Below, in pieces: positions 3-63,400 of a stretch of DNA of 64,000 nucleotides (positions are counted from its first letter, which is position 1; each line of letters begins with the position of its first letter). Both the position numbers and the translations under genes were made by a program. The notes below the pieces were generated by a model, which was given only the letters and a program-made list of their open reading frames with translations, was not told where the DNA came from and searched no databases. The DNA lies in the NCBI GenBank assembly GCA_964019335.1, contig OZ025749.1, positions 124,001 through 188,000 on the forward strand, written 5' to 3'. This DNA comes from Diplonema japonicum. Taxonomy: Eukaryota > Protista > Euglenozoa: Diplonemea.

Positions 3-1927
3 CGAAGCTCCACAGATTCCATAGAAAAACTGGACTTTGGAAGGCAGTCCCCCCGGTCCAATTTTGGTACATCTCCAATGAACAGCCCAGCTATTCGAAG
101 AAACCGGCTGAATTCACGAAGTAATTCACCTCATGAAGGGTTGCTCCCTGAATCCCCGTCTCCACGACACGCTCATGCAATTCCACCATTGGGCTACAGG
201 CGAAATTCACGGGATGAATCACCAAAACCCGTTCATAGGCCAAACCCACCGTCAAGACCGTCGTCATTGTCAGATCGTTCAGAAAGCGGGCTTGAAAGCC
301 CGTTCGGGGAAAAAAAAAAAAAAAAGAATGTGAAACGAAGAATGAAGGGAAAAGGACGTATAAAAGTCTGTTTGAGAAAACGGCCTTTAAACGCAGCCGG
401 GCAGGAAGGCGGGCAGGACGTTGTAGAGACCTTGGAGAAAGCGGTTATCGTCCAGGAGCACAAGGAGCGGATCGACCTTTCTAAATACACGGAGAAGCAA
501 ACCTTCCACTTCGATGATGTCTACGACGATGAGGCAACGAACTACGAGGTGTTCCTGGGGACCGCGAAACCGCTTTTGGACACATTTTTTGAAGGCGGCA
601 ACGCGTCCTGCTTCGCATACGGACAAACAGGGTCCGGGAAGACCCACACAATGTTGGGGAACAGGGGTATATATATAAAAAAAAAGAAAAAAAAAAGAAA
701 AAAAAGGTGAAGAAGGCCTGTATTTGCTAGCAGCACGGGAGCTCTTCGAACGTCTCAATCCCGCTCAACAAATTTTGGTATTTTTTTTTTTTTTTGGGGG
801 GGAAAAAAAAATAATAATAAAGGCGTCGTTCTACGAAATCTACTGCAATACGCTGTACGACCTGCTTGGCGAGCGGAAGGTCCTGCACCCGAGGGAGGAC
901 GCGAACAAAAAAGTGAACATTGTAGGCCTGTCCGAGCACACTGTCTCCGACTACGGCGGCCTCTTGAGGCTAATGGACATCGCCGAAAAACAACGATCCT
1001 CAGGTCCACCACAACGAAAAAAAAAAGAAAAAAAAAACAGGCGCCACAGCAGCTAACGAGCAGTCTTCGCGAAGCCATGCTATTCTAAGCTTGACATTGG
1101 TAACCGATGCCGATCCCAATTTCGAAGCCAGTTTCAAATTCATCGACCTCGCAGGCTCAGAACGCGGAGCGGACACCGCTGAAAGGGGAAGGAAAACACA
1201 ACAAGAAGGCGCTGAAATCAACAAATCGCTTCTTGCGCTGAAGGAATGCATCCGGGGATTGGACCTCGGCCACCAACACATAAAATTCCGAGGCAGCAAA
1301 TTAACAGAGGTTCTGCGAGATAATTTTTCGGGCAACTGTAGAACGGTAATGATTGCTACATTATCGCCCTCGTCCACCAATGTGGAGCATTCTTTGAATA
1401 CGCTGCGGTACGCGAACAGGGTGAAGGGACTACCTATCAAAAGTGTGGATCCTTCAAAGGCGAGGAACCAGCGGAGGCGCAGCACTTCAGCTGGTCTACA
1501 AGACGTGGGAAACAACGTTGCTCCCCTCAAAAACCAGCGGCCGAAACCCGGCAAACGTTTGAAAACACGTAGCAAGTCCGTACCGTCTCGGCCTATATTT
1601 CCTGAGGATCCTGCCGCTCAGCAGAATCGGACTGAAGCACAGAGCCCTGCAGGAACGGACGATTCAGATGGGTTAGACGATTTGGGTCTGGCCCTTCCTG
1701 CGTTGCTCGCTGTAAAAGGGGTTGTTACACAGCTCAAGCGGTCTGAAACCCAGCTTCAAGATGAAATAGCGCGGCTCAAAAAAGAGCTTCGAGAACGGGA
1801 GATCGCGCACAAGCAAGAGATTGGGATGTGTAAAATGGTGAAGAAAATGGACGATCAAAGGGTTTCCCTGCTGGAGGACCACAATGCCTCCCTGCAACGT
1901 AAGATAGCTGAGCTAAATGTGAATTAA
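3..1927 (+). CDS. Kinesin-13 family (MCAK/KIF2/KIF24-like) motor with internal motor domain; 5' end lies outside the window; spliced
   Basis: Frame is open from position 3. Motifs [20 protein letters not shown]-loop [53 protein letters not shown] and [13 protein letters not shown], then a C-terminal coiled coil. GT-AG introns 667-706 (40 nt), 778-822 (45 nt) and 1004-1040 (37 nt) join ORFs 78..710, 724..1056 and 1091..1927 and restore MLGNRGEEGLY and [19 protein letters not shown] further in-frame intron at 302-340 is possible. Confidence 0.93.
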
Positions 1928-60487: not shown

Positions 60488-63400
60488 ATGACAACCGAGC
60501 GCCCAGCAAAGAGAGCAAGGGTCGAGAAAGATGAGAAGAAGAAGGTCTCTGCCACCAGAGACCACGTGTTGCTGCCGTACAGGGCGGTGGGATCTGTGAC
60601 TGGACCGGTGGCGCCAAGCGTAGTAACGGCTGGGAAGGACTCGTTTGCCCTGTGTGCCGTTGGCAAGTATGCCTTTCCCCCCTCCAAACTCTGTTTGCCA
60701 CACAACCCACTCCCCCTCCTTACAGGACTCTGTATGAATACAATTTGGCAAAGCTTCAGCTTATTCATGTGAGCCAAGCCCTTCCTAAAAAGGTATTTTG
60801 ACACAAAAAAGAAAAAAAGATTTTGCCCACAGATCCGTGCTGTTGCGAAGCAGGGTGTGCTGAACACAGCAGCGGCGAAAGGTGAGATATATTGCTTCAA
60901 GATTAGGAGGCTGATCTGGACCGCGGTGCACTCTCAGCACGCAAAGGTCACACAGTTGATCGCGAGGAACCAGGTGTTGTTGTCGCTGGCTTCGGACGGC
61001 AGCGTGAAGGTGTGGAAGCTGGAAAGCGGGGAGCTGCTGAACGAGTTCTCCCTTCGGCACGACGCGACACCCACCGTCATGACCACAGTGGTGAACTACA
61101 GCACAAAGATCCTGATAGGGACGGTCCAAGGGGGATTGGAGCTGTGGAACTTCAACACAGGGACATTGGTGCACAAGTTCGATTCCTTTGGTGCCCAGGT
61201 CACCGCCCTCGCCCCGTCTCCTGCAGACGACACCGTTGCCGTGGGGCTTGTTAGTGGCAAGGTCCTGCTTGTGAACCTTGCCTATGGTAAGACGCTTTTC
61301 GAGTTCACCCATGCCAAGCACTCCGGACGGTCCGTGGCAGTCACCTCCATCTCCTTCAGAAACGACGGCCCTCAGACCATGTGCTCTGGTACAGAGTACG
61401 GCGAGGTCGCTGTTTGGAACCTTGCCAAAAAACGCCTCGAAGGCCTCCTCACATCATCCCTCCAAGCCGCCTCGCAGGACGAGGTCTTCGAGACCCCGCA
61501 TGAGGGCAGGGTCACCCTGCTCCACTTCCTCTCAGCAGAGCCCGTCCTCTTCTCAGCGGGCGAGGACAACTCCCTCAGGATGTACATCTTCGACAAGCTG
61601 CAGGGTACCGGGAAACTGCTTCGAGAACGCAGGGGGCACACGCAATCCTGCACGGGAGCTTCTTTCTTCGACTCCAAGCTCATGCTGTCCTTCGGGCTGG
61701 ACAGGACCCTCCGTGCCTCCCACGTGTTCACCGATCTCTTCAACAGAGAAATCTCGCAAGGCAGCCTCATAAAAGAGGCAAGGAAAAGGGGTGTTCAGAG
61801 CATTGACTTGAAGTTGCAACCGGTGACATCGCTGGCGGCGTCGACGAGGAGGACGCACGACTGGGCGTCGGTGCTCACTGGGCACAAGGGGAGCGGGCTG
61901 GCAAGGATGTGGAGGATGGACAAATTCTCGATCGCGGAAAAGAAAGGCGTGCTGAGATCGCCGAACGACCGGGACAAGAACAAGGTGGTGACGGCAGTGT
62001 GCATCTCGCAATGCGGGAACTACGGCCTCGTGGGGATGTCGTCCGGGAGGATCCACTGCTTCAACTTACAGTCTACAGAGTTCAGGGGGTCCTTCGTGGA
62101 CGAAACGCTGGAGCACGACAAGGCACACGACGGGAGGATCATAGGGATGTACCTCCTACAAGACAACGGCATGGTTCTGACCATAGGAGCAGACTGTTAC
62201 CAACGCCTATGGAACTTCCCCCCGAGAATCAACGGAGAGGACGGCGACACCGACAGCCAACTTCTCTTCAAGCTCACAATGCCCATCATCCCGAACGCGT
62301 GCGTTTTCAACACAAGCAACAACTTCTTAGCAGTCTCTGGCGCGGACTTCTCTGTACAGGTCTACGACGTGACTCCCAAGCACGCAGAGGTCAGTGCTCA
62401 GGACGTCATCAACACGGTTCTGAGGAAAGTCCGCGTGACATGCAAGGTTCTACCTGCAAGAAAAGTGCGTCACTTTGAGAAACACAGCTCCCCCGTGACA
62501 TCCTTGGCGTACACACCCGACTCACGACTGCTACTGACATCGTCTTTGGACGGGTTGGTCTGTGTGTGGGACATGCCGACGGACCGTCTCATCGATGCAG
62601 TAAGCTTCGAGTCTCCCGTCACCTCTCTGGACGTGCATCCTGATGGGTACTTCGTGTCAACCACACACGCCAACGATGAGAACGTGTACCTGTGGACCAA
62701 CAAGATGAAGTACGGGCACATCCCTGCAAGCTTTACAGATGGCACTGAAATCGAACCGCACGGCGTCTTCAAAATGCCAGAAGTTACCATCGATGGGACA
62801 TGGGACATGGACGAGGACAGACAGGAAGTGGGGATGGGTGAGGCGGTCGAGGAAAACGATGAAATCAACACAAAAGAGGAACTCAGCGAGATAGAAAAAA
62901 TGTTGATCGCCAAGGTAGAGGACGATGTTCAGGGATACCTGTCCATGGCGCCCACACCTAGGGGGAAGTGGAGCACACTCATTGCCTTGGAACAGATTAA
63001 AAAACGTAACGCTCCCATTGCACCGCCGAAGAAAATCGACGCGCCCTTTTTCCTCCCAACTCTTGGCGAGAAGAAGGAAAATGACGGGGAATCAAGGCTG
63101 CTTGCTACACTGAAGGATGGGCCTATGCAAGATGCAACAGAAACACCGTTTTTGAGACTTCTTGAGAAAAAGGACTTCAAAGCTGGATTGAGCCTGTTGG
63201 AGGAAATGGGTGTTAGCAAGGTTGATGCCGAGTTTAAGGGTTTGACCGACACGTACTTCGGGGTGGACAACGAGGAGGAAGAGGGCCCCGATGCCATGTC
63301 TGAAACTATAGCCAAGAGGTATAACATGGTCATCGATTTCTTCGAGTACCACCTCCCGAGGAGGACTCACTACGACTTCGTGCAGTCCCTCCTCTGCGTT

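What the first reader, a model, noticed from the sequence alone, without database searches (positions are those of the whole stretch)
667..60832. Mini-introns with a poly(A) tract where the polypyrimidine tract should be
Seen: 16 GT-AG introns inferred from reading frames (667-706, 778-822, 1004-1040, 9766-9804, 9865-9915, 14300-14352, 17063-17109, 18097-18144, 50719-51424, 51510-51567, 51687-51724, 55608-55673, 55739-55787, 59572-59605, 60667-60725, 60793-60832). Several are in-frame inserts recognised by composition rather than by a frameshift. Fifteen are 34-66 nt. Most end in an A-run directly before AG or CAG; 59572-59605 is nearly all A, and only about three have pyrimidine-rich ends. 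No fixed branch-point consensus is apparent. Known: U2AF65 normally binds a U-rich tract. Inference: this spliceosome defines 3' sites differently, for example with any A in the run serving as branch point or with an A-binding factor.
Basis: partly seen in the sequence, partly recalled or inferred. Interest (0 to 1): 0.8.

Follow-up and report, generated by a model that had tools for sequence, protein, structure and literature searches.

The report
Poly(A)-ended mini-introns of a Diplonema
In a marine flagellate of the genus Diplonema (likely D. japonicum), short introns end in runs of A or C where most organisms have a U-rich signal; this is real but was published in 2025, and the runs likely serve as a plain unstructured spacer for an ordinary spliceosome rather than as a new signal.

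Summary
All 16 introns are GT-AG at the stated places. Twelve are supported by transcript-derived data (one pair is 1 nt off) and four by colinear orthologues. Ten of 16 have ≥80% A at -20..-4, against 83 of 998 intergenic AGs. The window is a Diplonema, probably D. japonicum. Thakur et al. 2025 (PMC12621601) already report 'atypical poly(A) tracts' at its 3' splice sites, with median intron 41 nt, GTATG donors, U2AF1/2 present and a weak branch motif, but no mechanism. What I add is window-scale and inferred. The tract is A/C-rich and U/G-poor rather than strictly poly(A). U-runs sit ≥20 nt upstream of the AG and peak before probable spliced-leader acceptors, several of which also end in A/C. 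All 14 skipped AGs lie ≤33 nt from the GT (post hoc p≈0.03). The 706-nt intron is a ~44-nt mini-intron plus a repeat insert predicted to fold out. No altered or new splicing factor is shown. The scan's notes held no earlier finding on this.

The parts
667..706 (+). 40-nt intron, kinesin gene; A-run+AAG; skipped AGs at +20 and +31
778..822 (+). 45-nt in-frame intron, kinesin gene; T15-G7-A9, ends AAG
1004..1040 (+). 37-nt intron, kinesin gene; A-run+CAG
9766..9804 (+). 39-nt in-frame intron, zf-CHY/MIB_HERC2 gene; this pair is spliced in X9 with a 1-nt discrepancy
9865..9915 (+). 51-nt in-frame intron, same gene; T-runs then A25+G
14300..14352 (+). 53-nt intron, prefoldin subunit 3; A26+CAG
   Evidence: spliced product identical to P0125
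17063..17109 (+). 47-nt intron; A12 then C-rich end
   Evidence: exact joint in 3 of 3 runs
18097..18144 (+). 48-nt in-frame intron; skipped AG at +33
   Evidence: exact joint in 3 of 3 runs
50719..51424 (+). 706-nt intron in a CAP/VWA gene: a ~44-nt mini-intron with an inserted repeat; A22+CAG
50738..51399 (-). ~660-nt repeat inserted in the intron's A-run; subterminal inverted repeats and a terminal palindrome, likely a non-autonomous Helentron (HINE)-like element
51510..51567 (+). 58-nt intron; A13 early, pyrimidine (C>T) end; skipped CAG at +27
51687..51724 (+). 38-nt intron; T9 early, A/C end
55608..55673 (+). 66-nt in-frame intron, EF-hand gene; A21+G
   Evidence: orthologue P0179
55739..55787 (+). 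49-nt intron, EF-hand gene; skipped AGs at +20 and +32
59572..59605 (+). 34-nt intron (the shortest), GlcNAc-transferase gene; nearly all A
60667..60725 (+). 59-nt intron, UTP21; C-rich end, no A-run
60793..60832 (+). 40-nt intron, UTP21; the only YTRAY match
58689..58736 (+). probable spliced-leader acceptor: T-run, 25-nt C/A spacer, then AG at 58735-58736
   Evidence: X6 contig begins matching at 58736 with 22 unmatched letters before it, while DNA run X1 matches from 58723; SL letters not seen

Best explanation
These are ordinary GT-AG mini-introns of a Diplonema, likely removed by a standard U2-type spliceosome that spans the intron from its 5' end and likely takes the first AG at 34 nt or more, with the A/C-rich tail likely acting as an unstructured spacer that offers a branch adenosine at any distance. 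Shown: the introns are spliced; their last 20 nt are 89% A+C; they barely fold; U-runs stay at least 20 nt from the AG. Inferred: the branch A lies anywhere in the run, as it does upstream of the tract in trypanosomes. Inferred: U is kept away from the AG because U-tracts mark spliced-leader trans-splicing and coupled polyadenylation in this polycistronic lineage, and G is kept away because it creates AGs and structure, so genome-wide homopolymer slippage fills the gap with A or C. Inferred: long introns work when the extra sequence folds out.
For: Four of 16 acceptors are C-rich rather than A-rich. Orthologous intron positions in another diplonemid genome read through as T/H/P-rich peptide, consistent with C/A-rich DNA (P0004), and CA-rich motifs are published for R. 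humris and L. lanifica, so the common feature is U/G-poverty rather than A. All 14 skipped internal AGs are ≤33 nt from the GT and the shortest intron is 34 nt. Median folding energy is 0 against -0.14 kcal/nt for the adjacent exon (p=0.0005). T is 65/281 in 5' halves and 34/288 in 3' halves, and all 6 T-runs ≥5 nt end 20-36 nt before the intron end. T peaks at 0.65 about 90 nt before the ATG over 21 genes. Homopolymers fill all non-coding DNA. The 706-nt intron folds into two adjacent helices leaving 21+22=43 unpaired nt (z -5.95, 0 of 20 shuffles) and is spliced. U2AF1/2 and U2-type snRNAs are reported present.
Against: The ≥34-nt threshold was chosen from the same 15 introns: p=0.029 against re-placed AGs, and only 0.10 once an AG-free zone of 9 nt before the acceptor is granted. 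The long intron holds 50 internal AGs, its fold is only predicted, and the outermost pair of the long helix has p=0.59. Four short introns do carry T-runs ≥8 nt, so U-tracts are not banned from introns. The first AG after the last U-rich tract has ≥50% A before it in only 7 of 21 genes. A outnumbers C four to one and -4 is A in 15 of 16, which a purely passive spacer does not demand. No branch point was mapped, and no U2 or U2AF sequence of this organism could be examined. n=16 from one window.
Confidence: 0.5

Rival explanations
1. One reading: the A-run is a positive signal read by an A-binding factor (a changed U2AF2, a nuclear poly(A)-binding protein or another RRM protein) that replaces polypyrimidine recognition.
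For: 10 of 16 acceptors are ≥80% A and -4 is A in 15 of 16. The 706-nt intron still uses the AG after A22 despite 50 internal AGs. Several probable SL acceptors also end in A-runs.
Against: Four C-rich acceptors, one with no A-run longer than 3 and few A (60667-60725). U2AF1/2 reported present. U-tracts still peak upstream of genes. About 8% of intergenic AGs on either strand follow ≥80% A (83/998 and 83/1028), so the motif alone is a poor discriminator.
Confidence: 0.22
2. The A-runs have no role. They come from genome-wide slippage with a sense-strand bias near exons, and acceptors are chosen by exon-side factors plus the MAG trinucleotide.
For: A- and T-runs are abundant in all non-coding DNA (about 7 per kb each), and the last 10 nt before ATG are 75% A although they lie downstream of any acceptor.
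Against: Introns are biased A over T 17:4 while intergenic DNA is symmetric (p=0.005). T and G are depleted specifically in the 3' half, and AGs are absent from +34 to the acceptor in 15 of 15 short introns.
Confidence: 0.2
3. U-run/A-run hairpins bring the splice sites together and replace U2AF (structure-bridged splicing).
For: 778-822, 9865-9915 and 18097-18144 can form U:A stems of -4 to -7 kcal/mol; the long intron folds strongly.
Against: 8 of 15 short introns have no predicted pair at all, and introns fold less than adjacent exons.
Confidence: 0.06
4. The A-runs or the introns are sequencing or assembly artefacts.
For: One contig is 1 nt off at 9764-9924; contigs break at the longest runs, so their lengths are unverified.
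Against: Two runs that retain the introns match four introns with 0 differences; exon-joining contigs remove the introns; the same trait is published from Illumina data.
Confidence: 0.02

Closest known systems
[quoted passage not shown]
   Same: GT-AG, GTATG donor, short (median 41 nt there, 47.5 here), A the commonest base before the AG, YTRAY rare (13.9% there, 1 of 16 here). Very probably the same organism and the same trait, there on 10,131 introns.
   Different: In the parts read, the paper gives no mechanism and does not treat SL acceptors, the position of U-runs, skipped AGs or folded inserts. It lists CAG as the end, whereas 7 of 16 here end AAG.
Trypanosoma/Leishmania SL trans-splice acceptors (PMC9639853, PMC13601561; passages read)
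   Same: No branch consensus, any A serves, U2 lacks the branch-recognition motif; a U-rich tract lies upstream of genes in co-oriented clusters.
   Different: There the order is branch A, U-tract, AG. Here the U-tract, where present, ends ≥20 nt before the AG in cis introns and an A/C run fills the gap.
Rhynchopus humris and Lacrimia lanifica introns (PMC12621601)
   Same: Canonical ends, CA/CAC-rich motifs, weak A in the tract.
   Different: C-dominated tract and longer introns (medians 74 and 107 nt).
HINE/DINE-1 non-autonomous Helentrons (PMC4067079; passages read), for the insert in the 706-nt intron
   Same: Subterminal inverted repeats, 3' palindrome, no coding capacity, sits in a T-run on its own strand.
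   Different: Arms and palindrome are longer here (about 33 and 78 nt); no autonomous partner was sought and no empty site was shown.

Membership tests
U2-type (major) spliceosomal introns | GT...AG termini, removed from mRNA | tested here: met
U2-type (major) spliceosomal introns | 5' site complementary to U1 (G/GTRWG-like) | tested here: met
   -1 is G in 13/16, +3 is A or G in 15/16, +4 is T in 15/16, +5 is G in 9/16; compared with the published logo, not with a U1 sequence
U2-type (major) spliceosomal introns | U-rich polypyrimidine tract next to the AG | tested here: not met
   T 0.08 at -20..-4; common in the class but not universal
U2-type (major) spliceosomal introns | branch-point consensus YTRAY | tested here: not met
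   1 of 16; also absent in trypanosomes
U2-type (major) spliceosomal introns | lariat formation dependent on U2/U6 | not testable with these tools
   needs lariat sequencing or depletion
Published D. japonicum poly(A)-tract introns | organism is D. japonicum | tested here: inconclusive
   Diplonemidae by tree; nearest named relative D. ambulator at 85%; D. papillatum 64% and 53%; R. euleeides, L. lanifica and F. neradi 64-73%. Species inferred from exclusion and intron features, not matched to a named sequence.
Published D. japonicum poly(A)-tract introns | short introns, GTATG donor, A dominant before the AG | tested here: met
Euglenozoan non-canonical (end-paired) introns | non-GT-AG ends with strong end-to-end pairing | tested here: not met
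   all GT-AG; short introns unstructured
Non-autonomous Helentron (HINE), for 50738-51399 | subterminal inverted repeats and 3' palindrome | tested here: met
Non-autonomous Helentron (HINE), for 50738-51399 | insertion in a T-run without target duplication | tested here: inconclusive
   A-runs flank both ends on + in this and a related element; no empty site examined
Non-autonomous Helentron (HINE), for 50738-51399 | autonomous Rep/Helicase partner with the same ends | not testable with these tools
   no genome held

The most novel reading that the evidence does not exclude
In Diplonema the 3' splice-site order is rearranged for both cis- and trans-splicing. The last 20-30 nt before the AG are an A/C 'branch lawn', and the U-tract has moved upstream of the branch point, where it stands in for the missing 5' splice site. 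The spliceosome measures from that upstream anchor (U1-bound GT in cis, U-tract in trans) and takes the first AG beyond a fixed distance. One ruler would then explain how an intron-rich polycistronic genome keeps cis- and trans-splicing apart, and why folding Helentron-like inserts are tolerated inside A-runs.
Probability: 0.25. Interest if true: 0.65.

Novelty: already known. Interest (0 to 1): 0.33.

Why it matters
The trait itself is in print, so confirming it adds little. Its mechanism is open. Diplonemids must tell thousands of cis acceptors from spliced-leader acceptors on the same polycistronic RNA, and this window suggests a concrete, cheaply testable rule: A/C next to the AG, U-tract only upstream, first AG beyond 33 nt. 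If it holds genome-wide it would show how acceptors can be defined without a U2AF-type tract beside the AG.

Tried and rejected
Whole genome: none held, so genome-wide logos, U2 snRNA, U2AF and SF1 could not be examined. No RNA holder was listed on record; RNA status was inferred from exon joining. Both read-laying runs returned contigs only and cut tables, so no SL letters, starts or levels were seen. The homologue search across the 9766/9865 junctions found nothing at E≤1e-8. Rfam found no family in the window. A first shuffle test of AG placement was set aside because it moved G-run letters into the 3' end and inflated significance; one search replaced it. A motif scan for missed introns recovered 9 of the 15 short introns and 33 other matches, many in intergenic or antisense DNA, and none was adopted. 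Related organism X11 (about 95-99% identical pieces) gave no listed piece across an intron. Literature: searches for diplonemid introns with polypyrimidine or japonicum found Thakur 2025 as the only paper on the trait; one for Diplonema SL acceptors with polypyrimidine found only a kinetoplastid paper. Searches for A-rich acceptors elsewhere and for fungal tracts upstream of the branch found 0; the fungal parallel is recalled only and not used as evidence. The supplements of PMC12621601 and Additional file 1 of PMC10161547 (too large) could not be read and may hold motif logos, U2/U2AF alignments or SL-acceptor data that anticipate my additions. The scan's notes held nothing on this trait.
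Full report
Observation. The 16 stretches all start GT and end AG on the + strand; 15 are 34-66 nt (median of all 47.5) and one is 706 nt. They lie in eight genes, including a kinesin, prefoldin 3, a CAP/VWA protein, an EF-hand protein, a GlcNAc transferase and UTP21. 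Removing them yields uninterrupted frames. All 23 gene models I drew by hand lie on one strand.

Are they spliced? Fourteen runs were listed, none on record as RNA; I laid six of them. X1 and X5 run through introns, while X6, X7 and X9 join exons and so behave as RNA. Exact GT..AG joints appear for 17063-17109 and 18097-18144 in 3 of 3 runs of one study. Contigs of X6 remove exactly the predicted totals over 667/778/1004, over 50719/51510/51687 and over 59572; totals fix the sum, not each boundary. The spliced prefoldin equals a transcriptome protein letter for letter. The EF-hand and UTP21 products align without gaps at the junctions to orthologues. One result does not fit: over 9766/9865 the X9 contig removes 89 nt, not 90, and no GT-AG pair removes 89. 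A one-base homopolymer difference is my guess; the letters were not shown. X1 and X5 match four introns with no difference, so the runs are not basecalling products, though the lengths of the longest runs are unchecked.

Is it beyond chance? The non-coding DNA is full of homopolymers, with 131 A-runs and 142 T-runs of ≥8 nt in 19 kb between genes, so runs as such are ordinary here. The intron bias is not ordinary. A:T runs are 17:4 (p=0.005), and 10 of 16 acceptors have ≥80% A at -20..-4 against 83 of 998 intergenic AGs. Four acceptors are instead pyrimidine-rich but C-dominated. Over all 16 the last 17 nt are 89% A+C, 8% T and 3% G. YTRAY occurs once.

Organism. UTP21 hits diplonemids at 44-55% and other named proteins at ≤29% over most of its length. 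Prefoldin 3 is 85% identical to D. ambulator, 73% to R. euleeides, 72% to L. lanifica, and 64% to D. papillatum and F. neradi. The tree places it in Diplonemidae without resolving sisters. The genus is therefore well supported. The species is inferred, about 85% D. japonicum, from exclusion and from intron features.

What is known. Thakur et al. 2025 (PMC12621601; parts 1-5 of 8 read; supplements unavailable) analysed 10,131 D. japonicum introns: 98% GT-AG, median 41 nt, G/GTATG donors, YTRAY in 13.9%, and A 'unusually' the commonest base in the tract. [quoted passage not shown] The finding is therefore already known. The lack of a branch consensus is also known from the sister lineage: trypanosomes branch at any A upstream of the tract and splicing dictates polyadenylation (PMC9639853, passages), and their U2 lacks the branch motif (PMC13601561, passages). 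D. papillatum genes are in co-oriented clusters and essentially all mRNAs carry a spliced leader (PMC10161547, passages). The D. japonicum genome note does not mention introns (PMC13598402, term search).

How it likely works. Four observations from this window go beyond the parts of the paper that I read; all are small-sample.

(1) The organism has not lost U-tracts. T peaks at 65% about 90 nt before start codons. Inside introns T is confined to the 5' half, with every run ≥5 nt ending 20-36 nt before the end.

(2) Probable SL acceptors share the A/C tail. At 58736 an exon-joining contig stops matching at the G of an AG that follows a C/A spacer, leaving 22 foreign letters, while a DNA contig matches further upstream. 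In four more genes the contig length leaves 19-20 unexplained letters at an AG, three of them after ≥82% A+C. I expect a remnant of about that size from a 39-nt leader in 31-mer assemblies, but this is my inference, the letters were not seen, and several AGs fit in three of the five genes. Against generality, only 7 of 21 first-AGs after the last U-tract have ≥50% A before them.

(3) All 14 skipped AGs lie ≤33 nt from the GT and the shortest intron is 34 nt. This is suggestive only (p=0.029 with a threshold chosen afterwards, 0.10 given an AG-free zone).

(4) The 706-nt intron is a mini-intron with a ~660-nt insert in its A-run. Summed contig depth there is over 1000 times that of the flanking exon (not a copy number). 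The insert has subterminal inverted repeats and a terminal palindrome like HINE elements. Its predicted fold leaves 43 unpaired nt (z -5.95), the size of a normal intron, and it is spliced correctly past 50 internal AGs.

Together these fit a standard spliceosome that spans short introns from the 5' site, branches at any A in an unstructured U/G-poor spacer and takes the next AG, with U-tracts reserved for upstream positions and trans-splicing. I give this 0.5, an A-binding factor 0.22, no role 0.2, hairpin bridging 0.06 and artefact 0.02. No branch point, snRNA or factor of this organism could be examined.

Verdict. The trait is already published for what is very probably this species. Interest is 0.33, kept above the floor because the mechanism is open and the ruler and upstream-U-tract ideas can be tested with existing data.

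Noticed in passing
window 50738-51399 and about 43540-44104: Two related non-coding repeats with subterminal inverted repeats and a terminal palindrome, both flanked by A-runs (80% identical over 84 nt at one end); likely Helentron/HINE-type. One sits inside a correctly spliced intron.
   Followed up: partly
window 9764-9924: Run X9 contig is 1 nt longer than the predicted spliced form, which would shift the frame and stop at 10040; allele, homopolymer error or assembly error is unresolved.
   Followed up: partly
window 60667-60725, 60793-60832 and 14300-14352: Intron positions appear shared with other diplonemid genomes: read-through inserts fall at the same places in P0004 (UTP21) and probably P0127 (prefoldin 3), with T/H/P/Q-rich peptide suggesting C/A-rich DNA.
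   Followed up: partly
whole window: All 23 hand-drawn gene models are on the + strand; some are separated by under 100 nt (for example 4868-4953); the last 10 nt before ATG are 75% A.
   Followed up: partly
window 13390-14100, 15130-16700 and 39139-40602: GC-rich intergenic segments that look like retroelement remnants (the first two show high summed contig depth and several differences); the 488-aa ORF at 39139 has no Pfam match.
   Followed up: no
window 31012-35257: Three tandem paralogous-looking genes with a similar N-terminus followed by leucine-rich repeats (by eye, not tested).
   Followed up: no
window 4954-11919: 2291-aa multidomain protein (zf-CHY, MIB_HERC2, SPRY, RanBP zinc finger) with no homologue found for residues 1480-1800.
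   Followed up: partly
run X11 on window 44001-64000: A second organism holds this region at about 95-99% identity in coding pieces; it would be a good comparison for A-run turnover.
   Followed up: no
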